NCBI RefSeq assembly: GCF_017348835.2
Contig: NZ_CP072315.1
Reading direction: 5' to 3' (one strand)
DNA: 64,000 nt
DNA from: Escherichia coli
Lineage (GTDB): Bacteria; Pseudomonadota; Gammaproteobacteria; Enterobacterales; Enterobacteriaceae
How positions within the stretch are numbered: the first letter of the stretch is position 1; every line of letters starts with the position of its first letter. The notes below the pieces were generated by a model, which made no database searches, had not been told where the DNA came from, and saw only the letters and a list, made by a program, of their open reading frames with translations. Shown piece after piece: positions 47,621-64,000 of the stretch. The position numbers were made by a program, and so were the translations under genes.

Positions 47621-48213
47621 TTTGCACACATATGGAATCTGTAAATCATTTTGGACAAACCCGAAAAGAAATCCGTGAGTATGTAGATCTTAATAAGATT
47701 ACTGACCAGGTTAGTATCCCTGAAGATGGTGAAGTCGTTAATCTTTAATTATACATCCCCACAACTTTAATCAGGCAGTTACTCATTATGGTTTTACTGG
47801 TGACTGCCGGCCCTCTTAGCATTCGAAATTTTTTATGTCACCCGATTTAGTTCCGCGCACTTTTTGAGATTTCCGGGGTTTCAGCCATCAGCCGGAAATT
47901 ACAGAGGGCAATGGCTGAAGAAGGTTTTTCCCCGCGATAGCGCAAGTTTCCACAAAAGGGCATCGAATTTTTTGAATGCCCTTTTCTTACCCCATCCCCT
48001 CATAACTTTATGTTTTTATTAACTTCGCGTTTTCGACGCCAGCGTTGGCCAGCTGCTGCCGGCGACGTGGCCACACAACCGATTATTCAAGTTCGCTGAA
48101 TGAGTTTTTACGGGCTGTATGCAACACAAATGCTACGATAATGCCCCCGGACAATACCGGCTCCCAATAATCCGGGGTGGGTTTGTTCTGCCGGTTTAGT
48201 CCGGGGAGCAAGG

Positions 48214-48501
48214 TCACTTTGAGGGGAGATCTTCAGCAAGTAATTTTCCATGCGCGATAAGCCACCTGCGGCGTTTTGCCATCCACTGCTGAAATTCAGA
48301 GGTGCTCTCAACCTTCAGCACATCCTTCCGCTTCCAGGCCATTATGGGGCCAGCTTTTTGTGGTTGGTCGAGAAAGTCAGATATGGCTTTATCAGTCCAG
48401 TACCGCGCTTTCAATCCACTTTTACTTATCCAGTTATCGTGCCATTCAGCGCTTGCTTTAGCGCGTGAATCGGCGGCGTTGTAATAAAGCCTTACCGTCA
48501 T
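48214..48501 (-). CDS. Hypothetical protein
   Basis: 95-aa ORF downstream of the helicase fragment. Confidence 0.35.
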   Translation of the reverse strand: MTVRLYYNAADSRAKASAEWHDNWISKSGLKARYWTDKAISDFLDQPQKAGPIMAWKRKDVLKVESTSEFQQWMAKRRRWLIAHGKLLAEDLPSK

Positions 48502-48510
48502 TACTCGCTC

Positions 48511-48965
48511 CTATAATCTCAAGGCTCTGTCATCGTTATTTTTTTCATGGCCTTTATCTTTAGGCCGGGCATTACCTTTATCCTGCGTCGGCTCGGCTTT
48601 GTCTCGGCCTTTTTCGCGGGTATCATGCTGCTGCTCTTTGGCATAGCGTTTGAGTTGTTCCAGCTCAAGCGCGGCGGTTTTGAACCCTTCCCGGCTGGCC
48701 GCTTTATCCAGCTTCTTCTCATCGTCGGTGTAAATGACGGCTTCGTGTTTAGCGCGGGTGACAGCCACGTAATAAACATCTTTGGCCGTTGTGAGTGATC
48801 GGGTATCCATATTGATAAAAACCTTGTCGCAGGTCAGCCCCTGAGCACTATGAACGGTCGAAGCGTAAGCCAGCCCTAAGTACATAGGTTTGTTGGCATC
48901 AATTTTTACCAGCCGCCCTTTCTCGTTCTCCAGCAGTACCTCACCACTCTGGACGCTTTTTACCT
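48511..48965 (-). pseudogene. 3' fragment of a RecD/TraI-type helicase (relaxase-like) gene, interrupted by Tn1721
   Basis: C-terminal helicase motifs (YASTVHSAQGLTCDKVFI, YVAVTRAKHEAVIYTDD); the reading frame continues up to the inverted repeat at 48972 with no start. Confidence 0.6.
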
Positions 48966-48971
48966 TAAAAC

Positions 48972-49009
48972 GGGGGAACCGCAGAATTCGGAAAAAATCG
49001 TACGCTAAG
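48972..49009 (+). repeat. Tn1721-type 38-bp terminal inverted repeat (IRL-like)
   Basis: GGGGGAACCGCAGAATTCGGAAAAAATCGTACGCTAAG. Confidence 0.85.
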
Positions 49010-49160
49010 CTAACGGTGTTCTCGTGACAGCTCTTTGACTAGGCTTTCTAAGGCCATTCTGATAGCCCTGACTTCCTGAAAAGCCATGGCTAAAATTTGT
49101 GCGGCTAAAAGGGATAACCGATGGTAAAGTAAGTTATCCCTGTCGAGATACTGAAAAGCG

Positions 49161-50738
49161 TTATCCTCGTTTTTCCCAAAACTGTTTTGCCAGTTCGCTC
49201 AGAGCGCTAGTTAACTGAGCGACAGATTTCGCACTTTGCAAATTATTCTGCCCGGTCTGTACATTGGTATCAGCAGCATCGCGTATATTGATAATACTGC
49301 GGTTTATGTCTTCACTTACTGCTCCCTGCTGCTCGACCGCAGTCGCTATTTGCGCGTTCATGTCGGTAATTTCGTTAACGCGTTGGCCAATTCCATCAAG
49401 AGCTGTAGCTGCTTCCTCTGCGTGAGCTACACTCGTGTGCGCTTGCCGACTACTTTGCTCCATGACTGTAACAGCGGATTGCGCTCGCTCTTGTAGAGCG
49501 CTGATCATGCTTTGAATATCCGTTGTCGATTGCTGTGTGCGAGCAGCAAGACTGCGAACCTCATCGGCGACAACAGCAAAACCACGCCCCTGCTCACCAG
49601 CACGCGCGGCCTCAATTGCTGCGTTGAGTGCCAACAAATTCGTTTGCTCGGCGATCCCTCGTATAACGTCAAGAACTTTTGATATCTCGTTACTTTGACC
49701 TTCAAGCTCATGAATAACCTGAGTGGCTTGCCTAATTTCACCTTCAAGGGCAGTGATTGACTGGCTTGTGTGGGCTACCAGACGCTGGCCAGATGCCGTC
49801 TCAGTGTCTGCTCTTCCGGCCGCATCTGCAGCATGCTGTGCATTGCTCGCAACCTCTTGAATGCTTGCCACCATTTGGTTTACTGCCGTTGCTATTTGAT
49901 CTGTCTCTGCCTGCTGCTCAACTGTAAGTACATTGCTTGACTCAATATCCTTTAGTAGGCCTCGGGTGTGTTCGCTAAGCCGATTTGATGCATCACCTAT
50001 GCGACCTACTATGGCGCCTGTTTCAGCTTGCATCATTCGTAAAGCAAACTCTATTTGGCCAAACTCATCGGTGCGCCCAGTGTAGAGGGATTGACTTAAT
50101 GGGTTATTGGAAATATTCCTGGCTCTTTCAACCAGTCTTCCAAGAGGAGAGAGAATAGCCAAAACACTAACAGAGCTTAAGCTTCCTGACATTAAAGTGG
50201 CTAACAATAAGCTGCTTATTGATGTATCAGTAAGCATGCCGGCAGCCATTGCGCTTGATATAATACTACCCCATATGAGCAAGAGTATTTTCACGGAAAA
50301 GCTAGCAGCCAATTTCGGCCTCGCGGCCTTCCCGCTTCTCAATTGAGCATATAATTTTTCCGCAGCCAAAACCTGCTCAGGTTCAGGCTTGGTCCTTACA
50401 GACTGGTATTCAACAATCGAACCATTCTTAGCTATTGGCGTTACATAAGCACTTACCCAATAGTGGTCGCCATTTTTACAGCGATTTTTTACTAGCCCCA
50501 TCCATGAGCGGCCAGATTTTAATGTACTCCACATATGCTCAAATGCAGCAGGCGGCATATCTGGGTGTCTTACGATGTTGTGAGGCTGGCCTAATAGTTC
50601 TTCCTCAGTGAAACCACTGATTTTAATGAAGTCAGGATTAACGTACGTGATATGGCTTTGAGGGGAGGTAGTCGAAAGAATATTGGCATCTTTTGGGAGT
50701 TCTAAGTTTCGACCCGTCACTGGTAAATTCTGGCGCAT
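49161..50738 (-). CDS. Methyl-accepting chemotaxis-like protein (Tn1721 orfI-type) with N-terminal PAS-like region
   Basis: 525 aa from [20 protein letters not shown] signalling-domain character; the 730-aa track ORF is a fusion with antisense IS26 sequence. Confidence 0.8.
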
Positions 50739-50762
50739 AAGAACCTCAAGGGTTGGCTGTTT

Positions 50763-51582
50763 GGCACTGTTGCAAATAGTCGGTGGTGATAAACTTATCA
50801 TCCCCTTTTGCTGATGGAGCTGCACATGAACCCATTCAAAGGCCGGCATTTTCAGCGTGACATCATTCTGTGGGCCGTACGCTGGTACTGCAAATACGGC
50901 ATCAGTTACCGTGAGCTGCAGGAGATGCTGGCTGAACGCGGAGTGAATGTCGATCACTCCACGATTTACCGCTGGGTTCAGCGTTATGCGCCTGAAATGG
51001 AAAAACGGCTGCGCTGGTACTGGCGTAACCCTTCCGATCTTTGCCCGTGGCACATGGATGAAACCTACGTGAAGGTCAATGGCCGCTGGGCGTATCTGTA
51101 CCGGGCCGTCGACAGCCGGGGCCGCACTGTCGATTTTTATCTCTCCTCCCGTCGTAACAGCAAAGCTGCATACCGGTTTCTGGGTAAAATCCTCAACAAC
51201 GTGAAGAAGTGGCAGATCCCGCGATTCATCAACACGGATAAAGCGCCCGCCTATGGTCGCGCGCTTGCTCTGCTCAAACGCGAAGGCCGGTGCCCGTCTG
51301 ACGTTGAACACCGACAGATTAAGTACCGGAACAACGTGATTGAATGCGATCATGGCAAACTGAAACGGATAATCGGCGCCACGCTGGGATTTAAATCCAT
51401 GAAGACGGCTTACGCCACCATCAAAGGTATTGAGGTGATGCGTGCACTACGCAAAGGCCAGGCCTCAGCATTTTATTATGGTGATCCCCTGGGCGAAATG
51501 CGCCTGGTAAGCAGAGTTTTTGAAATGTAAGGCCTTTGAATAAGACAAAAGGCTGCCTCATCGCTAACTTTGCAACAGTGCC
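50763..51582 (+). mobile_element. IS26 copy 4 (820 bp)
   Basis: Both 14-bp ends; lies 24 bp upstream of the mcp start codon. Confidence 0.95.
50826..51530 (+). CDS. tnp26: IS26 transposase Tnp26 (Gly at position 184)
   Basis: 234 aa; KRIIGATLG. Confidence 0.9.
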
Positions 51583-51778
51583 GCGCGACGAGCAGCAGCA
51601 CCAGGAGCAGAAGCACGTCGAGAAAAAGCAACAGCAGATCGAGCAGCGCCCACGGCGGGCCGCTCGCATCGGATAAGTCGAAAAATCCGGCTAAAGTGGC
51701 CGAGCTGCACATCAGGCCGCGCGGTTTTCCTCCCTGATCGCCGGCGCGGTTTCTTCCTCCCTGAACCGCATGCAGACT

Positions 51779-51812
51779 TGCCGCCTCGGACACCCCGAGG
51801 CGGTTTTTTTTC
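51779..51812 (+). terminator. Rho-independent terminator
   Basis: Hairpin CCGCCTCGG-ACACC-CCGAGGCGG followed by eight T residues. Confidence 0.7.
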
Positions 51813-51823
51813 GCCTCGCTCGA

Positions 51824-52037
51824 GCATCGCCGCATCCGACGATGCCGAGACGACCAGGCCGCGCACGTCGAGCTGCAGCATCGCCATTGCCGACGATGGC
51901 ACCAGGTCGCCGGCGGTGGCCACCGACCTCGAGCTCGCATCGCCACATCCGACGATGCGCGCCGGCGTCGACCATCGCCAGGTCTGACGATGGCGGCCGC
52001 CCTGCCCTGGATCTCGCATCGCCATTTCTGGCGATGA
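51824..52037 (+). repeat. Five iterated about 22-bp partly palindromic sites (GCATCG-N10-CGATGC type)
   Basis: Copies at 51824, 51877, 51937, 51972 and 52016, upstream of the serine recombinase gene. Confidence 0.7.
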
Positions 52038-52161
52038 GATCCACGGAGCGGCCATTTAGACCCGCCAATAACGACCCGGCCAAGATAAATCGCATGACGG
52101 CCTTTTTGGCCGGGGGTAGCATGACCGGACACTTTGCGTATGCCCAAAGGAGCCCGCAAGT

Positions 52162-52899
52162 ATGCGCAGGACGAAGCCAGTAGCCGCGCCGATGGTGGCG
52201 CGGGTCTATCTGCGCGTCAGCACCGACGCGCAGGACTTGGAACGCCAAGAGGCGATCACTACGGCCGCGAAGGCCGCCGGCTACTACGTCGCCGGCATCT
52301 ACCGTGAGAAGGCATCCGGCGCACGCGCCGACCGGCCTGAGCTGCTGCGCATGATCGGCGACCTACAGCCCGGCGAGGTGGTCATTGCCGAGAAGATCGA
52401 CCGCATCAGCCGCCTACCTTTGCCCGAGGCCGAGCGCCTGGTGGCCTCGATACAGGCCAAAGGCGCAAGCCTGGCCGTCCCTGGCGTGGTCGATCTATCC
52501 GACCTGGCGGCCGAGGCCCAGGGCGTCGCCAAGATCGTGCTGGAAGCCGTGCAGATCATGCTTTTTCGCCTGGCCTTGCAGATGGCCCGCGACGACTACG
52601 AGGACAGGCGCGAACGCCAGCGCCAAGGCATTGAGTTGGCCCGCCAGGCCGGGCGGTACAAGGGCCGCCGTGCTGATCCGAAGCGCCGCGCCCAAGTTGT
52701 CGCGCTGCGCAAGTCCGGCTACAGCATCAACAAGACCGCCGAGCTGGCCGGGTACAGTGCGGCCCAGGTGAAACGGATATGGGCCGAGGTCAGCCAGGCC
52801 GAAGCGAAGCAGCACGGCGCGTTCGTGGAGGACGCATTGACGGAAGCCGATGCCCTGGCCGCTGTCGGCCAGGATGAGCGCCAGGAGGAAAGGGCATGA
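52162..52899 (+). CDS. Serine recombinase (resolvase/invertase family)
   Basis: 245-aa ORF with N-terminal catalytic-domain character (YLRVSTDAQDLERQ) and a C-terminal HTH; alternative start near 52192. Confidence 0.7.
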   Translation: MRRTKPVAAPMVARVYLRVSTDAQDLERQEAITTAAKAAGYYVAGIYREKASGARADRPELLRMIGDLQPGEVVIAEKIDRISRLPLPEAERLVASIQAKGASLAVPGVVDLSDLAAEAQGVAKIVLEAVQIMLFRLALQMARDDYEDRRERQRQGIELARQAGRYKGRRADPKRRAQVVALRKSGYSINKTAELAGYSAAQVKRIWAEVSQAEAKQHGAFVEDALTEADALAAVGQDERQEERA

Positions 52900-53120
52900 A
52901 GAAGCCGAACCAAGACGACGAGCCGTTTTTCATCACCGAGGAGATTGCGGCCGAAATGATCGCCGGCGGCTATGAGTTCGAGCTGCCGCCCATTCCTTGC
53001 ACCATCCGCCTACGCGACGTGCTGGAGCGCATGACCGATGCTGAGCTAGCATTGCAGCCGGGCGAGATCGCCGACCAGGAGCGTGAACGCTGCCGGCGCA
53101 AGCCGTGTTCAACCTCATGA
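52896..53120 (+). CDS. Hypothetical small protein
   Basis: 74-aa ORF overlapping the recombinase stop (ATGA). Confidence 0.3.
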   Translation: MKKPNQDDEPFFITEEIAAEMIAGGYEFELPPIPCTIRLRDVLERMTDAELALQPGEIADQERERCRRKPCSTS

Positions 53121-53213
53121 TCTGGTCATGGTATTTTTCATGGCACTGAGCCTGATAGTTCTTGCAAATTGTTGTCACTAAAGGGTTTTGTGTGCTTGTT
53201 TACAATCGAGTGG

Positions 53214-54850
53214 GAGTGACGGGCACTGGCTGGCAATGTCTAGCAACGGCAGGCATTTCGGCTGAGGGTAAAAGAACTTTCCGCTAAGCGATAGACTGTA
53301 TGTAAACACAGTATTGCAAGGACGCGGAACATGCCTCATGTGGCGGCCAGGACGGCCAGCCGGGATCGGGATACTGGTCGTTACCAGAGCCACCGACCCG
53401 AGCAAACCCTTCTCTATCAGATCGTTGACGAGTATTACCCGGCATTCGCTGCGCTTATGGCAGAGCAGGGAAAGGAATTGCCGGGCTATGTGCAACGGGA
53501 ATTTGAAGAATTTCTCCAATGCGGGCGGCTGGAGCATGGCTTTCTACGGGTTCGCTGCGAGTCTTGCCACGCCGAGCACCTGGTCGCTTTCAGCTGTAAG
53601 CGTCGCGGTTTCTGCCCGAGCTGTGGGGCGCGGCGGATGGCCGAAAGTGCCGCCTTGCTGGTTGATGAAGTACTGCCTGAACAACCCATGCGTCAGTGGG
53701 TGTTGAGCTTCCCGTTTCAGCTGCGTTTCCTGTTTGCCAGCCGGCCCGAGATCATGGGGTGGGTGCTGGGCATCGTTTACCGCGTCATTGCCACGCACCT
53801 GGTCAAGAAAGCGGGCCATACCCACCAAGTGGCCAAGACGGGCGCGGTCACCCTGATCCAGCGTTTTGGATCGGCGCTCAATCTGAATGTTCACTTCCAC
53901 ATGCTGTTTCTCGACGGTGTGTATGTCGAGCAATCCCACGGCTCAGCGCGTTTCCGCTGGGTCAAGGCGCCGACCAGCCCAGAGCTCACCCAGCTGACGC
54001 ACACCATCGCCCACCGGGTGGGTCGCTATCTGGAACGGCAAGGCCTGCTGGAACGGGATGTCGAAAACAGCTATCTGGCCTCGGATGCGGTGGATGACGA
54101 CCCGATGACACCCCTGCTGGGGCACTCGATCACTTACCGTATCGCTGTCGGTTCACAGGCGGGGCGAAAGGTGTTCACTTTGCAAACTCTGCCGACCAGT
54201 GGTGATCCGTTCGGTGACGGGATTGGCAAGGTAGCCGGGTCCAGCCTGCACGCCGGCGTGGCGGCCAGGGCCGATGAACGCAAGAAGCTCGAACGGCTGT
54301 GCCGGTACATCAGCCGCCCGGCGGTATCCGAGAAGCGGCTGTCGTTAACACGAGGCGGCAACGTGCGCTACCAGCTCAAGACGCCGTACCGGGACGGCAC
54401 CACGCACGTCATTTTCGAACCATTGGATTTCATTGCAAGGCTGGCCGCCCTGGTACCGAAGCCCAGAGTCAACCTAACCCGCTTCCACGGGGTGTTCGCA
54501 CCCAACAGTCGGCACCGGGCGTTGGTCACGCCGGCAAAACGGGGCAGGGGCAACAAGGTCAGGGTGGCTGATGAACCGGCAACACCAGCACAACGGCGAG
54601 CGTCGATGACATGGGCGCAACGGCTCAAGCGTGTTTTCAATATCGACATCGAGACCTGCAGCGGCTGCGGCGGCGCCATGAAAGTCATCGCCTGCATTGA
54701 AGACCCTATAGTGATCAAGCAGATCCTTGATCACCTGAAGCACAAAGCCGAAACCAGCGGGACCAGGGCGTTACCCGAAAGCCGGGCGCCACCGGCTGAG
54801 CTGCTCCTGGGTCTGTTTGACTGACGAGCCTGAAGGCCAACGATACCAAT
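53214..54850 (+). mobile_element. ISCR2 (IS91-like rolling-circle element); 3' boundary approximate
   Basis: Contains the ISCR2-type transposase gene; its first 305 bp are duplicated at 57498-57802. Confidence 0.75.
53331..54824 (+). CDS. ISCR2 transposase (IS91 family)
   Basis: 497-aa ORF MPHVAARTASRDRDTGRYQSHRPEQTLLYQ…. Confidence 0.85.
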   Translation: MPHVAARTASRDRDTGRYQSHRPEQTLLYQIVDEYYPAFAALMAEQGKELPGYVQREFEEFLQCGRLEHGFLRVRCESCHAEHLVAFSCKRRGFCPSCGARRMAESAALLVDEVLPEQPMRQWVLSFPFQLRFLFASRPEIMGWVLGIVYRVIATHLVKKAGHTHQVAKTGAVTLIQRFGSALNLNVHFHMLFLDGVYVEQSHGSARFRWVKAPTSPELTQLTHTIAHRVGRYLERQGLLERDVENSYLASDAVDDDPMTPLLGHSITYRIAVGSQAGRKVFTLQTLPTSGDPFGDGIGKVAGSSLHAGVAARADERKKLERLCRYISRPAVSEKRLSLTRGGNVRYQLKTPYRDGTTHVIFEPLDFIARLAALVPKPRVNLTRFHGVFAPNSRHRALVTPAKRGRGNKVRVADEPATPAQRRASMTWAQRLKRVFNIDIETCSGCGGAMKVIACIEDPIVIKQILDHLKHKAETSGTRALPESRAPPAELLLGLFD

Positions 54851-54854
54851 CAAA

Positions 54855-55739
54855 ATGCTGCGTTCACAGCGCCGCGGCAGGGATCCGCCGTGCTGGTTGT
54901 CGGAAAAGGAGCCGCTAGTGGGAAAGAGGAGGGTAAATTTTCAGCGTTGCTGGCTCCCCGTCAGCCGGATTGGGTTGCATCGCAGGGGTGTCGAAAGAGT
55001 CAACTGCGGTCCAAAGCTGTTGGACTTGGGTGAAAAGGGCGTTTATTCTTCCTATACGTGCCGCGTTCCAGGCGGCGACTATGAGGGCTATGTCGATGCC
55101 CATGTGCGCCGGCTGGAGGCGCTACGCCGGGCCGGTATCGTCGAGCGGATCGACGCCGACCAATGGCGCATCCCCAATGATCTGGTCAGCCGTGCCGCCG
55201 CCCATGACGCCGGCCGAGACAGTCAGGCCAGCGTTCGCGTCCTTTCCCCGGTCGATCTGAACAAACAGATCGGATCGGACGGCGCGACCTGGCTGGACCG
55301 GCGGCTGATCCACGGCGAGACGGCCGACCTTGCGCCAACCGGCTTCGGGCAACAAGTCCGCGAAGCCATGGACCAGCGCCGCGAGCACCATATCGAACAG
55401 GGCGACGCCACCCGCAGCCGGGACAGCCGCGTCTTCTACCGGCGCAACCTTCTCGCCATCCTGCGGGAGCGCGAGGTAGCCGGCGTCGGATCGGATATGG
55501 CTTTGAGTAAGGGCCTGCCGTTCCGCGCCGCCACGGACGGCGAGAGCGTCAGCGGCAAGTTTACCGGAACCGTGCATCTATCGAGCGGCAAGTTCGCCGT
55601 GGTCGAGAAATCCCATGAGTTCACCCTTGTCCCGTGGCGGCCGATCATCGACCGCCAACTCGGCCGCGAGGTTATGGGCATCGTGCAGGGCGGGTCGGTG
55701 TCGTGGCAGTTAGGGCGGCAGAGGGGGCTGGAACGCTGA
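54855..55739 (+). pseudogene. Truncated VirD2-like relaxase fragment of the floR module
   Basis: 294-aa ORF between ISCR2 and floR; assignment from the familiar ISCR2-virD2-fragment-floR-lysR context. Confidence 0.55.
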
Positions 55740-55955
55740 GTGCGCCCATGCCGCATTGCGAAGCAAAAGATAATCGGATAAAATGTAGCAATTCATATTC
55801 GTAAGCGTGGAGTAATCAGATGGGAAATTCCAAGTCAGCAGACAAGTAAGCCGCAACAACCAGTATTGTTGTTGCGGCGCTCTGTAAGGCTAGTCTCATC
55901 TGATTGCTGACGAGCAGACGTCGCCCGGTATTCCTTAATCGAGGGTTGATTCGTC

Positions 55956-57170
55956 ATGACCACCACACGCCCCGCGTGGGCCTATACGCTGCCGGCAGCA
56001 CTGCTGCTGATGGCTCCTTTCGACATCCTCGCTTCACTGGCGATGGATATTTATCTCCCTGTCGTTCCAGCGATGCCCGGCATCCTGAACACGACGCCCG
56101 CTATGATCCAACTCACGTTGAGCCTCTATATGGTGATGCTCGGCGTGGGCCAGGTGATTTTTGGTCCGCTCTCAGACAGAATCGGGCGACGGCCAATTCT
56201 ACTTGCGGGCGCAACGGCTTTCGTCATTGCGTCTCTGGGAGCAGCTTGGTCTTCAACTGCACCGGCCTTTGTCGCTTTCCGTCTACTTCAAGCAGTGGGC
56301 GCGTCGGCCATGCTGGTGGCGACGTTCGCGACGGTTCGCGACGTTTATGCCAACCGTCCTGAGGGTGTCGTCATCTACGGCCTTTTCAGTTCGATGCTGG
56401 CGTTCGTGCCTGCGCTCGGCCCTATCGCCGGAACATTGATCGGCGAGTTCTTGGGATGGCAGGCGATATTCATTACTTTGGCTATACTGGCGATGCTCGC
56501 ACTCCTAAATGCGGGTTTCAGGTGGCACGAAACCCGCCCTCTGGATCAAGTCAAGACGCGCCGATCTGTCTTGCCGATCTTCGCGAGTCCGGCTTTTTGG
56601 GTTTACACTGTCGGCTTTAGCGCCGGTATGGGCACCTACTTCGTCTTCTTCTCGACGGCTCCCCGTGTGCTCATAGGCCAAGCGGAATATTCCGAGATCG
56701 GATTCAGCTTTGCCTTCGCCACTGTCGCGCTTGTAATGATCGTGACAACCCGTTTCGCGAAGTCCTTTGTCGCCAGATGGGGCATCGCAGGATGCGTGGC
56801 GCGTGGGATGGCGTTGCTTGTTTGCGGAGCGGTCCTGTTGGGGATCGGCGAACTTTACGGCTCGCCGTCATTCCTCACCTTCATCCTACCGATGTGGGTT
56901 GTCGCGGTCGGTATTGTCTTCACGGTGTCCGTTACCGCGAACGGCGCTTTGGCAGAGTTCGACGACATCGCGGGATCAGCGGTCGCGTTCTACTTCTGCG
57001 TTCAAAGCCTGATAGTCAGCATTGTCGGGACATTGGCGGTGGCACTTTTAAACGGTGACACAGCGTGGCCCGTGATCTGTTACGCCACGGCGATGGCGGT
57101 ACTGGTTTCGTTGGGGCTGGTGCTCCTTCGGCTCCGTGGGGCTGCCACCGAGAAGTCGCCAGTCGTCTAA
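55956..57170 (+). CDS. floR: Florfenicol/chloramphenicol MFS exporter FloR
   Basis: 404 aa MTTTRPAWAYTLPAALLLMAPFDILASLAMDIYLPVV…. Confidence 0.95.
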   Translation: MTTTRPAWAYTLPAALLLMAPFDILASLAMDIYLPVVPAMPGILNTTPAMIQLTLSLYMVMLGVGQVIFGPLSDRIGRRPILLAGATAFVIASLGAAWSSTAPAFVAFRLLQAVGASAMLVATFATVRDVYANRPEGVVIYGLFSSMLAFVPALGPIAGTLIGEFLGWQAIFITLAILAMLALLNAGFRWHETRPLDQVKTRRSVLPIFASPAFWVYTVGFSAGMGTYFVFFSTAPRVLIGQAEYSEIGFSFAFATVALVMIVTTRFAKSFVARWGIAGCVARGMALLVCGAVLLGIGELYGSPSFLTFILPMWVVAVGIVFTVSVTANGALAEFDDIAGSAVAFYFCVQSLIVSIVGTLAVALLNGDTAWPVICYATAMAVLVSLGLVLLRLRGAATEKSPVV

Positions 57171-57197
57171 CCGACGACTGGTAGCAGGCCCGCTCCG

Positions 57198-57503
57198 ATG
57201 CGGCGCACTAACCATCGAAACCTCGTGAATGTCGGTATCCTGTCTGGCAGGATACCGCTCATTTCCCTTGTTCAGTTCATCGCCGTCGCCGAGCATCTGA
57301 ATTTTCGGCATGCGGCCAAGGCACTTGGTATCAGCCAGTCGAGCGTCAGCGCGCGTGTGAAAGCGCTGGAGGATAACCTTGGTGTCCTGCTATTTGAGCG
57401 CCATGCGCGGGGCGTTCGGCTAACAGACGCAGGCAGGCACTTCATGGAGCGTGTCACGGCGGGTGTCGATCAACTCGATCACGCAGTGAAGACCGCGGAG
57501 TGA
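57198..57503 (+). pseudogene. lysR: Truncated LysR-family regulator
   Basis: 101 aa with LysR HTH only; cut off by the ISCR2 5' fragment. Confidence 0.75.
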
Positions 57504-57802
57504 CGGGCACTGGCTGGCAATGTCTAGCAACGGCAGGCATTTCGGCTGAGGGTAAAAGAACTTTCCGCTAAGCGATAGACTGTATGTAAACACAGTATTG
57601 CAAGGACGCGGAACATGCCTCATGTGGCGGCCAGGACGGCCAGCCGGGATCGGGATACTGGTCGTTACCAGAGCCACCGACCCGAGCAAACCCTTCTCTA
57701 TCAGATCGTTGACGAGTATTACCCGGCATTCGCTGCGCTTATGGCAGAGCAGGGAAAGGAATTGCCGGGCTATGTGCAACGGGAATTTGAAGAATTTCTC
57801 CA
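57498..57802 (+). mobile_element. ISCR2 5' fragment (305-bp direct repeat of 53214-53518)
   Basis: Identical by eye to the start of the complete ISCR2, including the first 63 codons of its transposase. Confidence 0.85.
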
Positions 57803-58969
57803 AAGCCCGCGACGCAGCGCCGGCAGGCAGAGCAAGTAGAGGGCAGCGCCTGCAATCCATGCCCACCCGTTCCACGTTGTTATAGAAGCCGCATAGATCG
57901 CCGTGAAGAGGAGGGGTCCGACGATCGAGGTCAGGCTGGTGAGCGCCGCCAGTGAGCCTTGCAGCTGCCCCTGACGTTCCTCATCCACCTGCCTGGACAA
58001 CATTGCTTGCAGCGCCGGCATTCCGATGCCACCCGAAGCAAGCAGGACCATGATCGGGAACGCCATCCATCCCCGTGTCGCGAAGGCAAGCAGGATGTAG
58101 CCTGTGCCGTCGGCAATCATTCCGAGCATGAGTGCCCGCCTTTCGCCGAGCCGGGCGGCTACAGGGCCGGTGATCATTGCCTGGGCGAGTGAATGCAGAA
58201 TGCCAAATGCGGCAAGCGAAATGCCGATCGTGGTCGCGTCCCAGTGAAAGCGATCCTCGCCGAAAATGACCCAAAGCGCGGCCGGCACCTGTCCGACAAG
58301 TTGCATGATGAAGAAGACCGCCATCAGGGCGGCGACGACGGTCATGCCCCGGGCCCACCGGAACGAAGCGAGCGGGTTGAGAGCCTCCCGGCGTAACGGC
58401 CGGCGTTCGCCTTTGTGCGACTCCGGCAAAAGGAAACAGCCCGTCAGGAAATTGAGGCCGTTCAAGGCTGCCGCGGCGAAGAACGGAGCGTGGGGGGAGA
58501 AACCGCCCATCAGCCCACCGAGCACAGGTCCCGCGACCATCCCGAACCCGAAACAGGCGCTCATGAAGCCGAAGTGCCGCGCGCGCTCATCGCCATCAGT
58601 GATATCGGCAATATAAGCGCCGGCTACCGCCCCAGTCGCCCCGGTGATGCCGGCCACGATCCGCCCGATATAGAGAACCCAAAGGAAAGGCGTCGTCGCC
58701 ATGATGGCGTAGTCGACAGCAGCGCCGGCCAGCGAGACGAGCAAGACCGGCCGCCGCCCGAAACGATCCGACAGCGCGCCCAGCACAGGTGCGCAGGCAA
58801 ATTGCATCAACGCATACAGCGCCAGCAGAATGCCATAGTGGGCGGTGACGTCGTTCGAGTGAACCAGATCGCGCAGGAGGCCCGGCAGCACCGGCATAAT
58901 CAGGCCGATGCCGACAGCGTCGAGCGCGACAGTGCTCAGAATTACGATCAGGGGTCTGTTGGGTTTCAC
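57770..58969 (-). CDS. tetA(A): Tetracycline efflux protein TetA(A), 3' end replaced by ISCR2-derived sequence
   Basis: 399 aa from a GTG start (V)KPNRPLIVILSTVALDAVG…; the last 33 nt lie inside the ISCR2 fragment, giving a …RRGLWRNSSNSRCT C-terminus. Confidence 0.9.
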   Translation of the reverse strand: MKPNRPLIVILSTVALDAVGIGLIMPVLPGLLRDLVHSNDVTAHYGILLALYALMQFACAPVLGALSDRFGRRPVLLVSLAGAAVDYAIMATTPFLWVLYIGRIVAGITGATGAVAGAYIADITDGDERARHFGFMSACFGFGMVAGPVLGGLMGGFSPHAPFFAAAALNGLNFLTGCFLLPESHKGERRPLRREALNPLASFRWARGMTVVAALMAVFFIMQLVGQVPAALWVIFGEDRFHWDATTIGISLAAFGILHSLAQAMITGPVAARLGERRALMLGMIADGTGYILLAFATRGWMAFPIMVLLASGGIGMPALQAMLSRQVDEERQGQLQGSLAALTSLTSIVGPLLFTAIYAASITTWNGWAWIAGAALYLLCLPALRRGLWRNSSNSRCT

Positions 58970-59017
58970 GTCTGGCCTCCGGACCAGCCTCCGCTGGTCC
59001 GATTGAACGCGCGGATT

Positions 59018-59066
59018 CTTTATCACTGATAAGTTGGTGGACATATTATGTTTATCAGTGATAAAG
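59018..59066. promoter_or_regulatory. tet operator region (two palindromic operators) between tetA and tetR
   Basis: TTTATCACTGATAA and TTTATCAGTGATAAA palindromes in the divergent intergenic region. Confidence 0.8.
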
Positions 59067-59074
59067 TGTCAAGC

Positions 59075-59725
59075 ATGACAAAGTTGCAGCCGAATACAGT
59101 GATCCGTGCCGCCCTGGACCTGTTGAACGAGGTCGGCGTAGACGGTCTGACGACACGCAAACTGGCGGAACGGTTGGGGGTTCAGCAGCCGGCGCTTTAC
59201 TGGCACTTCAGGAACAAGCGGGCGCTGCTCGACGCACTGGCCGAAGCCATGCTGGCGGAGAATCATACGCATTCGGTGCCGAGAGCCGACGACGACTGGC
59301 GCTCATTTCTGATCGGGAATGCCCGCAGCTTCAGGCAGGCGCTGCTCGCCTACCGCGATGGCGCGCGCATCCATGCCGGCACGCGACCGGGCGCACCGCA
59401 GATGGAAACGGCCGACGCGCAGCTTCGCTTCCTCTGCGAGGCGGGTTTTTCGGCCGGGGACGCCGTCAATGCGCTGATGACAATCAGCTACTTCACTGTT
59501 GGGGCCGTGCTTGAGGAGCAGGCCGGCGACAGCGATGCCGGCGAGCGCGGCGGCACCGTTGAACAGGCTCCGCTCTCGCCGCTGTTGCGGGCCGCGATAG
59601 ACGCCTTCGACGAAGCCGATCCGGACGCAGCGTTCGAGCAGGGACTCGCGGTGATTGTCGATGGATTGGCGAAAAGGAGGCTCGTTGTCAGGAACGTTGA
59701 AGGACCGAGAAAGGGTGACGATTGA
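59075..59725 (+). CDS. tetR(A): Tetracycline repressor TetR(A)
   Basis: 216 aa from MTKLQPNTVIRAALDLLNEVGVDGLTTRKLAERLGVQQPALYWHF. Confidence 0.95.
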   Translation: MTKLQPNTVIRAALDLLNEVGVDGLTTRKLAERLGVQQPALYWHFRNKRALLDALAEAMLAENHTHSVPRADDDWRSFLIGNARSFRQALLAYRDGARIHAGTRPGAPQMETADAQLRFLCEAGFSAGDAVNALMTISYFTVGAVLEEQAGDSDAGERGGTVEQAPLSPLLRAAIDAFDEADPDAAFEQGLAVIVDGLAKRRLVVRNVEGPRKGDD

Positions 59726-60198
59726 TCAGGACCGCTGCCGGAGCGCAACCCACTCACTACAGCAGAGCCATGTAGACAACATCCCCTCCCCCTTTCCACC
59801 GCGTCAGACGCCCGTAGCAGCCCGCTACGGGCTTTTTCATGCCCTGCCCTAGCGTCCAAGCCTCACGGCCGCGCTCGGCCTCTCTGGCGGCCTTCTGGCG
59901 CTCCTGCTGCGGCGTCCGCTCGTGGGCCGTGGCGCGGGTCCGCGCGCCGGCCTCGTGCGCCTGGCGCTCGCGGGCGAGGTCCAGGGCGGCCGTCTTCACG
60001 TTCTGCCTTGCGCAGATGAGATAGATCTAGCGTGGACTCAAGGCTCTCGCGAATGGCTCGCGTTGGAAACTTTCATTGACACTTGAGGGGCACCGCAGGG
60101 AAATTCTCGTCCTTGCGAGAACCGGCTATGTCGTGCTGCGCATCGAGCCTGCGCCCTTGGCTTGTCTCGCCCCTCTCCGCGTCGCTACGGGGCTTCCA

Positions 60199-60236
60199 GG
60201 GGTCGTTTGCGGGAAGGGGCGGAATCCTACGCTAAG
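60199..60236 (+). repeat. Tn3-family 38-bp inverted repeat, Tn5393-like, downstream of strB
   Basis: GGGGTCGTTTGCGGGAAGGGGCGGAATCCTACGCTAAG, 68 bp from the strB stop. Confidence 0.7.
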
Positions 60237-60304
60237 GCTTTGGCCAGCGATATTCTCCGGTGAGATTGATGTGTTCCCAGGGGATAGGAGAAGTCGCTTG
60301 ATAT

Positions 60305-61141
60305 CTAGTATGACGTCTGTCGCACCTGCTTGATCGCGGCCGCGATAGCTAGATCGCGTTGCTCCTCTTCTCCATCCGCGTTCCAAGCTGCGGAAAGGCA
60401 CCCATAAGCGTACGCCTGGTCGAGCAGGCGACGCGGATCGACGTCCAGCGCACGAGAGAATGCGTCCGCCATCTGTGCAATGCGTCTAGGATCGAGACAA
60501 AGGTCGTCTCTGTCAGCCGGATCGTAGAACATATTGGCGGCGCCAAAGCCCACTTCACCGACCAGACCGACGGGATCTATCACCAGCCAGCCGCGACTGG
60601 AGAACATGATGTTTTCATGATGCAGATCGCCATGTAGCCCACGCAGTTCCGAGGCATTGCTCATCATTTGATCGGCTATAATCGCCGCGTGGACGTAGTC
60701 AGTTTGACAACCTGCGTTTTGATCATCGCGCGCCCGCTGAAACAAAGCTGCAAAGCGATCCCGGATCGGGAGAAGGGCAGAAGGCAGGGGTTCCTCAGAT
60801 GCGGCATACAGCTTCGCCATTAGTTCCGCTGCAATTTCGGTCGCCTGGTAGTCGCCGTGCTCGGCAACGATGTGAGAGAGCATTCGCTCCCCGGCATATT
60901 CGAGCAACATCAGATTGTTCTCACGACCGAGCAACCGGACTGCTCCCCTCCCATTGCGCCATACCAGATAGTCGGCCCCGCGCAGTTCATCAGCAATGTC
61001 TTCTATAGGTTTCAATCCCTTGACGATTGCAGGAGTCCCGTCTGGCAATGAAACTTTCCAAACGAGGCTGGAAAAGGTGTCCGCAATGAGAACAGGTTGC
61101 GAAACGTGCCAATGAGCAGGAAAAACAGGCGGCATGAACAT
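60305..61141 (-). CDS. strB: Aminoglycoside 6-phosphotransferase APH(6)-Id (StrB)
   Basis: 278 aa from MFMPPVFPAHWHVSQPVLIADTFSSLVWKV. Confidence 0.95.
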   Translation of the reverse strand: MFMPPVFPAHWHVSQPVLIADTFSSLVWKVSLPDGTPAIVKGLKPIEDIADELRGADYLVWRNGRGAVRLLGRENNLMLLEYAGERMLSHIVAEHGDYQATEIAAELMAKLYAASEEPLPSALLPIRDRFAALFQRARDDQNAGCQTDYVHAAIIADQMMSNASELRGLHGDLHHENIMFSSRGWLVIDPVGLVGEVGFGAANMFYDPADRDDLCLDPRRIAQMADAFSRALDVDPRRLLDQAYAYGCLSAAWNADGEEEQRDLAIAAAIKQVRQTSY

Positions 61142-61944
61142 CAACCCCAAGTCAGAGGGTCCAATCGCAGATAGAAGGCAAGGCGTTCGCGGTCGGGGGC
61201 TTCGATCCCCAATACATTGAATAGGACAGCGAAGGCGCGCTCTGCTTCATCTGGCGCTGCCCAGTTCTCTTCGGCGTTAGCAATCATGAGTGCCAAATCG
61301 GCATAGCGATCTGCTGTTCCGAGCCGCCCAAGGTCGATCAGACCCGTGCATTGAAGAGTTTTAGGGTCCACCATGAAGTTCGGCATGCAGGGATCACCAT
61401 GGCAAACAACCATATCGGTGCGCTCTTGGTCGAGCCGCACCGGTAGCTCTCGTTCGACACGAGCCAAAAGATCGAGCTGCGGCGTACTCTTGTCCTCGTC
61501 CGGTAAGAAGTCGGGATTGACGGCATTGCGGGACACCACATCAACGGCGCGTCCGAACATTCGCGACAGCCTGCGCTCAAACGGACATTGATCAACCGAT
61601 AGGCTGTGAACAGCGCCAAGTTGCTGCCCCATTGACGGCCACGCTTTGAGCAAATCCGCTCCAGACAGATCAGCCGCCGGTACTCCCGGAATTGCCGTTA
61701 TCACCAAGCATGCACCCTCCTGTTCCTCCTGCCAGTTGATGACCTCGGGGCAAGCCACACCTCGACCTTTGAGCCAAATGAGGCGGTCACGCTCTCCAGC
61801 GAGCTCACCGCGGCGGGAAGCAGGTGCGATTTTCGCGAAGGCATGCCCGTCACCACGTCGAAAAACAAAATCACCAGATTCTCCGCCTCTGACAGGCAAC
61901 CAGTCAGAATGCGATTCACCAAAAAAAATATTAGTTCGATTCAA
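61141..61944 (-). CDS. strA: Aminoglycoside 3''-phosphotransferase APH(3'')-Ib (StrA)
   Basis: 267 aa MNRTNIFFGESHSDWLPVRGGESGDFVFRRGDGHAFAKIAPASRRGELAGERDRL. Confidence 0.95.
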   Translation of the reverse strand: MNRTNIFFGESHSDWLPVRGGESGDFVFRRGDGHAFAKIAPASRRGELAGERDRLIWLKGRGVACPEVINWQEEQEGACLVITAIPGVPAADLSGADLLKAWPSMGQQLGAVHSLSVDQCPFERRLSRMFGRAVDVVSRNAVNPDFLPDEDKSTPQLDLLARVERELPVRLDQERTDMVVCHGDPCMPNFMVDPKTLQCTGLIDLGRLGTADRYADLALMIANAEENWAAPDEAERAFAVLFNVLGIEAPDRERLAFYLRLDPLTWG

Positions 61945-62004
61945 TGGAGGTTCCTTCAGTTTTCTGATGAAGCGCGAATATAGAGAAATATCCCGAATGT
62001 GCAG

Positions 62005-62820
62005 TTAACGAATTCTTGCGGTTTCTTTTAGCGCCGCCAATACCGCCAGCCCGTCGCGCAAGGGGCGCGGCTCGTGTGTGCGGATGAAGTCAGCTCCACC
62101 TGCGGCGGCGGCAAGCTCTGCAGCGAGTGTCGCGGCCCCGACATCCCCCGGACCACGGCCTGTGAGCGCGCGCAGAAAGGATTTGCGCGAAACAGACAGA
62201 AGCACCGGCAAATCGAAGCGCAGCCGCAATTCATCGAACCGCGCCAGCACCGAGAGCGAGGTTTCGGGAGCAGCCCCCAGAAAAAACCCCATGCCGGGAT
62301 CAAGGACAAGGCGGTTGCGTTTGATACCGGCACCCGTCAGCGCCGCGATGCGCGCGTCAAAGAACGCCGCAATGTGATCCATGATGTCGCCAGCGGGTGC
62401 CTCGCGCCGATCTGCCTGCCCGTCTTGCACCGAATGCATAACGACGAGTTTGGCAGATGATTTCGCCAATTGCGGATAGAACGCAGCGTCTGGAAAACCG
62501 CGAATATCATTGAGATAGGCCACACCACGCGACAAGGCATAGGCTTGCGTCGCGGGTTGATAACTGTCGAGCGAGACGGGAATGCCATCTGCCTTGAGCG
62601 CGTCCAGCACCGGCGCGATACGCTCGATTTCTGTGTCGGACGAAACAGGCGCGGCGTCGGGGTTGCTGGATGCCGGACCGAGGTCGATCACATCTGCCCC
62701 CTCGGCCATCAACTTACGCGCCTGCGCAATGGCTGCGTCTGGCGCCAGATACCGGCCTCCATCGGAGAAACTGTCCGAGGTTATGTTGACGATGCCGAAA
62801 ATGATGAGCGATTTATTCAT
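62005..62820 (-). CDS. sul2: Sulfonamide-resistant dihydropteroate synthase Sul2
   Basis: 271 aa MNKSLIIFGIVNITSDSFSDGGRYLAPDAAIAQARKLMAEGADVIDLGPASSNPDA. Confidence 0.95.
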   Translation of the reverse strand: MNKSLIIFGIVNITSDSFSDGGRYLAPDAAIAQARKLMAEGADVIDLGPASSNPDAAPVSSDTEIERIAPVLDALKADGIPVSLDSYQPATQAYALSRGVAYLNDIRGFPDAAFYPQLAKSSAKLVVMHSVQDGQADRREAPAGDIMDHIAAFFDARIAALTGAGIKRNRLVLDPGMGFFLGAAPETSLSVLARFDELRLRFDLPVLLSVSRKSFLRALTGRGPGDVGAATLAAELAAAAGGADFIRTHEPRPLRDGLAVLAALKETARIR

Positions 62821-63127
62821 GGGGGCTTCTATAATAATAATAATCGAGCATGAGTCTCATACGGATGCTCGGGTCGAAAGGGAATCCCCAGGCGAGTAAC
62901 CTGTTTGCGGTGATCCATTAGCTGCAGGAGCAGAATAGCATACATCTGGAAGCAAAGCCAGGAAAGCGGCCTATGGAGCTGTGCGGCAGCGCTCAGTAGG
63001 CAATTTTTCAAAATATTGTTAAGCCTTTTCTGAGCATGGTATTTTTCATGGTATTACCAATTAGCAGGAAAATAAGCCATTGAATATAAAAGATAAAAAT
63101 GTCTTGTTTACAATAGAGTGGGGGGGG

Positions 63128-63979: not shown

Positions 63980-64000
63980 GGGGCACCCCCTTGCTCTTGC
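63976..64000 (-). pseudogene. repA: 3' end of RSF1010-type repA (runs off the window edge)
   Basis: Reading frame overlapping the repC start, as in the RSF1010 repA-repC arrangement; only about 8 codons visible. Confidence 0.5.

What the first reader, a model, noticed from the sequence alone, without database searches (positions are those of the whole stretch)
53214..57802. ISCR2-floR unit bounded by a complete ISCR2 and a 305-bp ISCR2 5' fragment in direct repeat
The module ISCR2, virD2-like fragment, floR, truncated lysR and then a 305-bp copy of the ISCR2 start is the footprint of rolling-circle capture or an excised circular intermediate. The direct repeats allow the floR segment to loop out by homologous recombination.
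Basis: partly seen in the sequence, partly recalled or inferred. Interest (0 to 1): 0.3.

Follow-up and report, generated by a model that had tools for sequence, protein, structure and literature searches.

The report
Standard ISCR2-floR resistance module
This is the well-known florfenicol-resistance module (ISCR2, a relaxase-gene fragment, floR, a lysR fragment, then a short ISCR2 remnant) that sits unchanged in more than 1,500 sequenced resistance plasmids, so it is real but ordinary.

Summary
A perfect 307-bp direct repeat (not 305 bp) lies at 53213-53519 and 57497-57803, 4284 bp apart. The first copy is the 5' end of a complete ISCR2/CR2 (53213-55059). The second is an ISCR2 remnant fused to the 3' end of tet(A) through a 6-bp microhomology. 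Between them lie the 3' third of a DUF3363 ("virD2") gene, an intact floR and the first ~100 codons of a lysR gene.

The 5.2-kb stretch is 100% identical in the best 25 matches listed, and at least 1577 plasmid records hold at least 80% of it. It is the floR-tet(A)-strAB-sul2 island derived from GIsul2, the commonest form of ARI-B in IncC plasmids, and it is described in the literature.

Loop-out by homologous recombination is supported by comparison. The exact predicted deletion product exists in 27 plasmid records. Two IncC plasmids with 99.9-100% identical flanks differ by exactly 4284 bp.

Rolling-circle capture by ISCR2 is the accepted model but has never been shown experimentally. By its geometry, floR lies on the wrong (oriIS) side of the complete copy.

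Verdict: already known, low interest.

The parts
50763..51582 (+). IS26, which cuts off the left part of the GIsul2-derived island
   Evidence: ORF 50808-51530 is the IS26 transposase. The 820-bp match and the start of colinearity with IncC ARI-B are at 50763.
52162..52899 (+). resG-type serine recombinase gene, a GIsul2 remnant upstream of CR2
   Evidence: Pfam Resolvase plus HTH_7. Annotated 'recombinase family protein' next to ISVsa3 in IncC plasmids. GIsul2 gene order from PMC9376610.
52896..53120 (+). Small hypothetical gene between resG and CR2
   Evidence: ORF; no Pfam hit; annotated as hypothetical.
53208..53215 (+). GAGTGGGA, the core of the GIsul2 attLR site, overlapping the 5' boundary of ISCR2 copy A only
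   Evidence: Pattern search. The core sequence and its overlap with the proposed terIS GGGAGTGACGGGCACTGGC are from PMC9376610. Copy B has CCGC|GGA instead.
53213..55059 (+). Complete ISCR2 (CR2, ISVsa3), 1847 bp, with terIS at the left end and oriIS at the right end
   Evidence: The 5' boundary comes from the divergence of five independent upstream contexts at |GGAGTGACGGG. The 3' boundary comes from context divergence at query position 460 = 55059, after ...TTCTTCCTATACGT.
53213..53519 (+). Direct repeat copy 1 (first 307 bp of ISCR2: terIS, rcr2 promoter, first 63 codons)
   Evidence: Exact extension of the repeat.
53296..53311 (+). LexA box CTGT-N8-ACAG of the rcr2 promoter. The same box recurs at 57580-57595 in the remnant.
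   Evidence: Pattern search. LexA binding to the ISCR2 promoter region is shown in bioRxiv 10.1101/2025.11.21.689736.
53331..54824 (+). rcr2, the ISCR2 HUH (Y2) transposase gene, 497 aa
   Evidence: Pfam Zn_Tnp_IS91 and Y2_Tnp. NCBIfam ISCR clade Ia, 670.8 bits. Annotated WP_001120888.1 ISVsa3 transposase.
55060..55739 (+). 3' fragment (last ~226 codons) of a DUF3363 'virD2-like' gene. The annotated ORF 54855-55739 is a chimera that starts inside ISCR2.
   Evidence: DUF3363 profile positions 155-374/375 at residues 72-292. 84% identity to residues ~410-633 of a 635-aa Gemmobacter protein. DNA homology starts at 55060 (H82).
55956..57170 (+). floR, chloramphenicol/florfenicol efflux pump, intact (404 aa)
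   Evidence: NCBIfam FloR, 899 bits, full length. MFS_1.
57198..57496 (+). 5' fragment of a lysR-family regulator gene, cut by ISCR2 copy B. The ORF reads on to a stop at 57501-57503 inside ISCR2.
   Evidence: HTH_1 domain only. 76% identity to residues 1-80 of a 307-aa LysR.
57497..57803 (+). Direct repeat copy 2: a 307-bp 5' remnant of ISCR2
   Evidence: 580 plasmid records carry the same lysR'|ISCR2 junction with ISCR2 running on past nt 307.
57798..57803 (.). CTCCAA, a 6-bp microhomology at the ISCR2 remnant / tet(A) junction
   Evidence: Three-way alignment with native tet(A) and intact ISCR2. tet(A)-only matches start at 57798 and ISCR2 matches end at 57803.
57770..58969 (-). tet(A), whose last 9 codons are replaced by antisense ISCR2 sequence (…GLWRNSSNSRCT* instead of …GLWSGAGQRADR)
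   Evidence: Translation of both versions. AMRFinder call at the equivalent position. MFS_1.
59048..59725 (+). tetR(A)
   Evidence: NCBIfam TetR equivalog.
60305..62820 (-). sul2-strA-strB (sul2 62005-62820, aph(3'')-Ib 61141-61944, aph(6)-Id 60305-61150)
   Evidence: NCBIfam.
63118..63125 (+). att-like site GAGTGGGG about 300 bp upstream of sul2, within TTGTTTACAATAGAGTGGGG, which resembles the attLR flank. Colinearity with IncC ARI-B ends at 63122 and RSF1010 repC follows.
   Evidence: Sequence; end of the match; repC matches.

Best explanation
The region is the standard ISCR2(CR2)-'virD2'-floR-'lysR'-ISCR2-remnant module. It sits inside a GIsul2-derived multiresistance island of the ARI-B type: resG-hyp-CR2-floR-remnant-tet(A)-tetR-strB-strA-sul2.

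Shown directly:
- One complete ISCR2 plus a 2437-bp floR segment form a 4284-bp unit flanked by identical 307-bp direct repeats.
- The floR segment is bounded on one side by the oriIS end of ISCR2 and on the other by the terIS end. This is the arrangement expected if a 4284-bp circle (ISCR2 plus floR segment) were opened inside ISCR2.
- The second ISCR2 was shortened to 307 bp by an illegitimate join to the 3' end of tet(A) at a 6-bp microhomology.

Inferred:
- The unit arose when an ISCR2 inserted in lysR mobilised the DNA upstream of its terIS end (lysR', floR, part of virD2). Closure of a circle created the oriIS|virD2' junction.
- That unit entered the resident CR2 of GIsul2 by homologous recombination, or as an ISCR2-floR-ISCR2 array.
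- The downstream copy was later truncated.

Today the most likely behaviour is RecA-dependent recombination between the 307-bp repeats. This deletes floR and the complete ISCR2 as a 4284-bp circle and leaves resG-hyp-remnant-tet(A).
For: Identity and prevalence:
- The 25 best matches to the 5.2-kb stretch are 100% identical over its full length, and at least 1577 plasmid records hold at least 80% of it. The gene order is annotated ISVsa3 transposase / DUF3363 / floR / LysR / tet(A).
- The structure is described in the literature as ISCR2(ΔISCR2)-virD2-floR-lysR-ISCR2(ΔISCR2) (PMC6885840) and as the commonest ARI-B configuration (PMC7652850).

Anatomy:
- The repeat is exact.
- The boundaries of ISCR2 are at 53213 and 55059.
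- Both flanking genes are truncated exactly at ISCR2 ends.

Order of events:
- 580 records have the same lysR'|ISCR2 junction with a longer downstream ISCR2. The 307-bp remnant is therefore a derived, shortened form.
- The tet(A) junction has the CTCCAA microhomology.

Loop-out:
- The simulated deletion product is found in 27 records.
- pKKp4-VIM and p205880-2 have the flanking genes at identical record coordinates and differ by exactly 4284 bp. The flanks are 100% identical over 6.4 kb and 99.9% over 12 kb.
Against: - No circular molecule is shown by anything here.
- The 27 'empty' records could be ancestral, with a circle later integrating into a pre-existing remnant, rather than deletion products. 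The sequence cannot give the direction.
- Rolling-circle transposition by Rcr2 has never been demonstrated (PMC9376610; bioRxiv 10.1101/2025.11.21.689736), and the rcr2 promoter is almost silent in E. coli (same preprint).
- The 5' boundary of CR2 coincides with the core of the GIsul2 att site. GAGTG or GAATG precedes it in 3 of 5 independent contexts. This fits site-specific recombination at least as well as terIS termination.
Confidence: 0.88

Rival explanations
1. Integration rather than deletion. The ancestral state was resG-hyp-307-bp remnant-tet(A). A free 4284-bp ISCR2-floR circle then entered it by homologous recombination within the 307 bp, so the 'empty' plasmids are precursors and not derivatives.
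For: The empty configuration exists in 27 records from several genera. Both junctions of the floR segment are those of a circle. Circular forms carrying ISCR2 have been reported by inverse PCR for tet(X4) (cited in PMC9045152).
Against: Empty forms are rare: 27 records against at least 1577. They occur in IncC plasmids that share the same IS26-mediated rearrangements and coordinates as floR-positive sisters, which is more simply explained by recent loss. 580 records show a longer downstream ISCR2, so a route through truncation of a full second copy is available.
Confidence: 0.25
2. The CR2 boundaries were made by the GIsul2 tyrosine integrase acting on att-like sites, not by rolling-circle transposition. 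On this view CR2 is cargo of a site-specific recombination system, and the lysR'|CR2 junction is an att crossover at a secondary site.
For: [quoted passage not shown] In five independent upstream contexts the break is always at |GGAGTGACGGG, and three of them carry GAGTG or GAATG just before it. Deleting rcr2 had no effect on CR2-sul2 mobilisation, whereas deleting int abolished it (PMC9376610). An att-like site lies about 300 bp upstream of sul2.
Against: The lysR context has CCGC, not GAGTG, before the break. A full-length lysR homologue has no GAGTGGGA-like site at the equivalent position, although at 76% identity it is only a proxy. No GIsul2 int gene adjoins the island, because IS26 cuts it about 580 bp upstream of resG. 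The oriIS|virD2' junction has no att-like sequence.
Confidence: 0.2
3. The duplication is an assembly artefact: a repeat mis-joined in this one sequence.
For: None specific. Repeats of this size can be mis-assembled from short reads.
Against: The 25 best matches listed are complete plasmid records from different genera, laboratories and years, and all show the same arrangement at 100% identity. At least 1577 records hold at least 80% of the stretch. The unique tet(A) junction is found at full length in many records.
Confidence: 0.01

Closest known systems
ISCR2(ΔISCR2)-virD2-floR-lysR-ISCR2(ΔISCR2) module, as in the commonest ARI-B island of IncC plasmids (floR-tet(A)-strAB-sul2)
   Same: Identical sequence and gene order. 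99.96% identity over 12.36 kb (window 50763-63122) with IncC plasmid p205880-2, including the IS26 on the left. Described in PMC6885840 and PMC7652850.
   Different: In this window the match ends at the att-like site upstream of sul2 (63122), and RSF1010 repC follows instead of the IncC backbone next to parA. The island therefore sits in a different right-hand context.
CR2-sul2 unit at the 3' end of genomic island GIsul2
   Same: resG-hyp upstream; attLR core GAGTGGGA overlapping the CR2 5' end 118 bp before rcr2; sul2 with an att-like site about 300 bp upstream (PMC9376610).
   Different: About 7 kb of extra cargo lies between CR2 and sul2 (floR segment, ISCR2 remnant, tet(A)/tetR, strAB). 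The right-hand site is GAGTGGGG (7 of 8). The int end of GIsul2 has been removed by IS26.
ISCR1 complex class 1 integrons (duplicated 3'-CS flanking ISCR1 plus a resistance gene)
   Same: An IS91-like ISCR element with a captured resistance gene next to its oriIS end, bracketed by direct repeats. The usual explanation is a circular intermediate that recombined homologously (from my own knowledge of Toleman et al. 2006; not re-read here).
   Different: Here the repeats are parts of the ISCR element itself rather than the 3'-CS. ISCR2 retains a defined 5' end, whereas the 5' end of ISCR1 is not defined.
IS26-flanked translocatable units
   Same: A resistance gene plus one IS copy can leave as a circle and leave one repeat behind. 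Circles are detected by inverse PCR (PMC9045152).
   Different: IS26 units can also move by Tnp26-catalysed conservative recombination. For ISCR2 no transposase-dependent reaction has been shown, and the second repeat here is a 307-bp remnant with no transposase gene.

Membership tests
ISCR2 / CR2 (ISVsa3), IS91-like ISCR group | Single ORF encoding an HUH Y2 transposase with an N-terminal zinc-binding domain | tested here: met
   Pfam Zn_Tnp_IS91 (E 1e-19) and Y2_Tnp (E 6e-36). NCBIfam ISCR clade Ia, 670.8 bits, below that model's 925-bit cut-off.
ISCR2 / CR2 (ISVsa3), IS91-like ISCR group | Sequence identity to annotated ISCR2/ISVsa3 | tested here: met
   100% identity to records annotated 'IS91-like element ISVsa3 family transposase' (WP_001120888.1) and 'rcr2: ISCR2 putative transposase'.
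ISCR2 / CR2 (ISVsa3), IS91-like ISCR group | Published 5' boundary (terIS) GGGAGTGACGGGCACTGGC, about 119 bp upstream of rcr2 | tested here: met
   Copy A carries it at 53212-53230, 118-119 bp before the ATG at 53331. Copy B carries it without the first G (sequence from PMC9376610).
ISCR2 / CR2 (ISVsa3), IS91-like ISCR group | Distinct 3' boundary (oriIS) downstream of the transposase gene | tested here: met
   Dozens of unrelated downstream contexts diverge at 55059-55060, after ...GGGCGTTTATTCTTCCTATACGT. That this resembles the ISCR oriIS consensus is from memory and was not checked against a paper.
ISCR2 / CR2 (ISVsa3), IS91-like ISCR group | Moves by rolling-circle transposition from oriIS to terIS | not testable with these tools
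   Stated as unproven in PMC9376610 and in bioRxiv 10.1101/2025.11.21.689736.
ISCR2-virD2-floR-lysR-ΔISCR2 module | Order ISCR2 / 5'-truncated virD2-like gene / intact floR / 3'-truncated lysR / ISCR2 or remnant, all in one orientation | tested here: met
   Description in PMC6885840.
GIsul2-derived island (ARI-B type) | resG-hyp-CR2 on the left, sul2 on the right, att core sequences at the CR2 5' end and upstream of sul2 | tested here: met
   The right-hand core is GAGTGGGG, 7 of 8 positions.
GIsul2-derived island (ARI-B type) | Located in the IncC backbone upstream of parA | tested here: not met
   Colinearity with IncC ARI-B stops at 63122, and RSF1010 repC follows. It is therefore filed as ARI-B-like, not as ARI-B in its canonical site.
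GIsul2-derived island (ARI-B type) | GIsul2 integrase gene present, so the island is autonomous | tested here: not met
   IS26 lies about 580 bp upstream of resG. The only tyrosine recombinase found among the large ORFs checked was intI1 at 45369-46382. Not every ORF in the window was checked.
Repeat-flanked unit that can loop out by homologous recombination | Identical direct repeats of a few hundred bp, and naturally occurring precise deletion derivatives | tested here: met
   307/307 identity. 27 records with the exact predicted product. A sister-plasmid pair differs by exactly 4284 bp.
Repeat-flanked unit that can loop out by homologous recombination | A circular 4284-bp form detectable in cells | not testable with these tools
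   Needs inverse PCR or long reads. The one circular database record of this unit looks like an assembly artefact.

The most novel reading that the evidence does not exclude
ISCR2 may not be a rolling-circle insertion sequence at all in these contexts. Its sharply conserved 5' boundary lies inside the GIsul2 att core. The break at |GGAGTGACGGG recurs in five unrelated contexts, three of which keep GAGTG or GAATG just before it. Together these would mean that CR2-linked resistance modules such as this floR unit were assembled by the GIsul2 integrase at secondary att sites, plus homologous recombination, with Rcr2 playing no part. The idea has already been raised in PMC9376610, so even if true this window would only add one more example.
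Probability: 0.15. Interest if true: 0.4.

Novelty: already known. Interest (0 to 1): 0.08.

Why it matters
The module matters clinically and in veterinary medicine. It links florfenicol/chloramphenicol resistance to tetracycline, streptomycin and sulfonamide resistance on broad-host-range plasmids. The repeats explain why floR can be lost or gained as a 4.3-kb block. None of this is new: the arrangement is among the most frequently sequenced resistance contexts. The only open question it touches is whether ISCR2 really transposes by rolling circle, or is moved by the GIsul2 integrase and homologous recombination. This window cannot settle that question.

Tried and rejected
- Tandem amplification. 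I searched the plasmid collection with a permuted query (floR 3' part, lysR', full ISCR2, virD2', floR 5' part). The tool joined the two permuted pieces of ordinary single units into one 'place', so every listed hit showed 2 pieces and the test was uninformative.
- A free circle in the databases. pKP2442_7c331 (NZ_KX434882.1, 4848 bp, 'circular', no replicon) is exactly the 4284-bp unit plus a 556-bp internally deleted IS26 with an 8-bp duplication. The IS26 remnant contains AGATGTATGTAAGAGACAG, which by my recollection closely resembles the Nextera mosaic end. I therefore treat the record as a probable assembly artefact and not as evidence for a circle.
- An att-like target in lysR. The full-length Gemmobacter lysR homologue has no GAGTGGGA-like sequence at the equivalent position. 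It is only 76% identical, so this is weak evidence against the integrase route.
- The review by Partridge et al. 2018 (PMC6148190) is not held. The orientation of oriIS and terIS was taken instead from PMC9376610 and the 2025 bioRxiv preprint.
- Assembly artefact in the window itself: rejected, because the 25 best matches are independent complete plasmid records with the same arrangement at 100% identity, and at least 1577 records hold at least 80% of the stretch.
- No inverted repeats of 40 bp or more were found in 48000-64000, so this is not an IR-bounded transposon.

Full report
**Observation**

The region contains one family of long direct repeats and no long inverted repeats. Extending the match base by base gives a perfect 307-bp repeat at 53213-53519 and 57497-57803, with a spacing of 4284 bp (alignment).

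**Anatomy**

- **ISCR2 copy A.** Copy 1 of the repeat is the start of a complete ISCR2 (also called CR2 or ISVsa3). The rcr2 ORF (53331-54824, 497 aa) has the Zn_Tnp_IS91 and Y2_Tnp domains.
- **ISCR2 boundaries.** I set these empirically, from where unrelated database contexts stop matching.
  - The 3' end is at 55059, after ...TTCTTCCTATACGT.
  - The 5' end is at 53213.
  - In five independent upstream contexts the break is always at |GGAGTGACGGG. This matches the published putative terIS GGGAGTGACGGGCACTGGC about 119 bp upstream of rcr2 (PMC9376610).
- **virD2-like fragment.** The annotated 294-aa 'DUF3363/virD2' ORF (54855-55739) is a chimera that starts inside ISCR2.
  - Only residues 72-292 match DUF3363, at profile positions 155-374 of 375.
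  - DNA and protein homology to a full-length 635-aa gene on a Gemmobacter aquarius plasmid begins at 55060.
- **floR** (55956-57170) is intact.
- **lysR fragment.** The lysR ORF keeps only its HTH_1 domain. It corresponds to the first 80 of 307 residues of a full-length homologue and is cut at 57496/57497 by copy 2 of the repeat.
- **ISCR2 remnant and tet(A).** Copy 2 is a 307-bp ISCR2 remnant joined to the 3' end of tet(A).
  - Native tet(A) sequence matches from 57798 and ISCR2 sequence matches up to 57803.
  - The junction therefore lies in a shared CTCCAA.
  - The last nine residues of TetA are replaced by antisense ISCR2 sequence.

**Context**

- Upstream of ISCR2 lie a serine recombinase gene (resG), a small ORF, and the GAGTGGGA core of the GIsul2 attLR site at 53208-53215 (PMC9376610).
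- Downstream lie tetR(A), strB, strA and sul2. An att-like TTGTTTACAATAGAGTGGGG sits about 300 bp upstream of sul2.
- From the IS26 at 50763 to 63122 the window is 99.96% identical to the ARI-B island of an IncC plasmid.
- Beyond 63122 the window continues into RSF1010 repC rather than the IncC backbone.
- The rest of the window holds an IncC-type dcm gene, a class 1 integron and further IS26 copies. It is a multiresistance plasmid region.

**How common it is**

- The 25 best matches to the 5.2-kb stretch 52900-58100 are 100% identical over its full length. At least 1577 plasmid records from Escherichia, Klebsiella, Salmonella, Acinetobacter, Vibrio and other genera hold at least 80% of it.
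- The module is described in print as ISCR2(ΔISCR2)-virD2-floR-lysR-ISCR2(ΔISCR2) (PMC6885840).
- The floR-tet(A)-strAB-sul2 island is described as the most commonly seen ARI-B configuration (PMC7652850).

**Mechanism: what is shown**

- The floR segment (55060-57496, 2437 bp) is bounded on its left by the oriIS end of ISCR2 and on its right by the terIS end.
- One ISCR2 plus this segment makes a 4284-bp unit. Written as a circle and opened within the first 307 bp of ISCR2, it gives exactly the linear arrangement seen.
- 580 plasmid records carry the same lysR'|ISCR2 junction with ISCR2 continuing past nucleotide 307. The 307-bp remnant is therefore a shortened derivative, made by the microhomology join to tet(A).
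- A query simulating the product of recombination between the two repeats (resG-hyp-remnant-tet(A)) finds 27 records at 99.6-100% identity.
- IncC plasmids pKKp4-VIM and p205880-2 have the flanking genes at identical coordinates and tet(A) displaced by exactly 4284 bp.
- Removing the unit in silico from p205880-2 gives 100% identity over 6.4 kb on the left and 99.9% over 12 kb on the right.
- Natural gain or loss of precisely this unit is therefore documented.

**Mechanism: what is inferred**

- **Direction of change.** Loss by RecA-dependent recombination between the 307-bp repeats is the simplest reading. Empty forms are rare and occur in lineages that share IS26 rearrangements with floR-positive sisters. 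The sequence alone cannot exclude the reverse, integration of a circle into a pre-existing remnant.
- **Rolling-circle origin.** This is the accepted hypothesis, but two recent sources state that it has never been demonstrated for ISCR elements (PMC9376610; bioRxiv 10.1101/2025.11.21.689736). The preprint also finds the rcr2 promoter nearly silent in E. coli.
- **Geometry of capture.** In the model, replication begins at oriIS (3' boundary) and ends at, or reads past, terIS (5' boundary).
  - floR lies upstream of the terIS end of the truncated copy and beyond the oriIS end of the complete copy.
  - Capture, if it happened this way, was by the ancestor of the remnant.
  - The oriIS|virD2' junction would then be the closure point of the transposition circle.

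**A rival for the 5' boundary**

- The CR2 5' boundary lies in the middle of the GIsul2 att core.
- In PMC9376610 the GIsul2 integrase, not rcr2, was required to move the CR2-sul2 unit.
- Of the five upstream contexts I aligned, three carry GAGTG or GAATG directly before the break although their further flanks are unrelated. This is unexpected for simple termination at terIS.
- Two points count against this rival. The lysR context in this window has CCGC instead, and a lysR homologue shows no att-like site there.
- I rate this rival at about 0.2 for the lysR junction.

**Dead ends**

- The tandem-array search was uninformative because permuted pieces were merged.
- The 4848-bp 'circular plasmid' made of exactly this unit plus a deleted IS26 contains a sequence that I recall as close to the Nextera mosaic end. 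It is probably an assembly artefact.

**Verdict**

The feature is already known, and the interest is low.

Noticed in passing
window 55060-57496; L005 (Gemmobacter aquarius plasmid NZ_CP028920.1) 3773-10236: A freshwater alphaproteobacterial plasmid carries a full-length DUF3363 gene (635 aa), then floR2, tetR(G), tet(G) and a full-length lysR (307 aa). The window's virD2' and lysR' fragments are 84% and 76% identical in protein to the two ends of this cluster. The ISCR2-borne floR segment therefore looks like a cut-down relative of a DUF3363-floR-(tetRG)-lysR cluster of the kind also recalled from SGI1.
   Followed up: partly
window 53208-53215 and 57492-57499; L006-L010: The 5' break of CR2 is at the same nucleotide in five unrelated contexts. 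Three of them (GIsul2 resG side, tet(X4) side, an Acinetobacter plasmid) have GAGTG or GAATG immediately before it, which completes or nearly completes the GIsul2 att core. The lysR and Shigella HTH-gene contexts do not.
   Followed up: partly
window 57770-57803 (- strand): TetA(A) here ends ...GLWRNSSNSRCT instead of ...GLWSGAGQRADR. Its last nine codons and its stop codon come from the antisense strand of the ISCR2 remnant.
   Followed up: yes
window 57580-57595 and 57497-57803: The 307-bp remnant keeps the rcr2 promoter region with its LexA box (CTGTATGTAAACACAG) and the first 63 codons of rcr2. It points into the 3' end of tet(A) in antisense. Any SOS-induced transcription from it would run against tet(A). 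The promoter is reported to be very weak.
   Followed up: no
window 63118-63125 and 63122 onward: An att-like TTGTTTACAATAGAGTGGGG lies about 300 bp upstream of sul2, exactly where similarity to IncC ARI-B stops. RSF1010-type repC sequence follows, 100% identical to S. Typhi CT18 pHCM1. The island's right end here is therefore the repC-sul2-strAB arrangement, not the IncC backbone.
   Followed up: partly
window 49161-50762 (- strand): A PAS-domain methyl-accepting chemotaxis protein gene abuts the IS26 at 50763. The 730-aa ORF listed there runs on into IS26, so it is a fusion artefact.
   Followed up: partly
window 32361-32376 and 45341-45356: There are two further perfect CTGT-N8-ACAG LexA-box matches. 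The one at 45341 lies just upstream of intI1 (45369-46382), where a LexA box is known from my own knowledge. The one at 32361 was not examined.
   Followed up: no
L012 (NZ_KX434882.1, pKP2442_7c331, 4848 bp): This database 'plasmid' has no replicon. It consists of exactly the 4284-bp ISCR2-floR unit in circular form plus a 556-bp internally deleted IS26 flanked by an 8-bp duplication (CGACTGGC) in lysR'. The IS26 remnant contains a sequence I recall as close to the Nextera mosaic end, so the record is probably an assembly artefact.
   Followed up: yes
window 55291-55500: This part of the virD2-like fragment matches, at about 87% identity, sequence annotated under sul1/folP in some Klebsiella and Pseudomonas plasmids (H83 and H84). 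It hints at a related DUF3363 remnant next to sul1 elsewhere.
   Followed up: no
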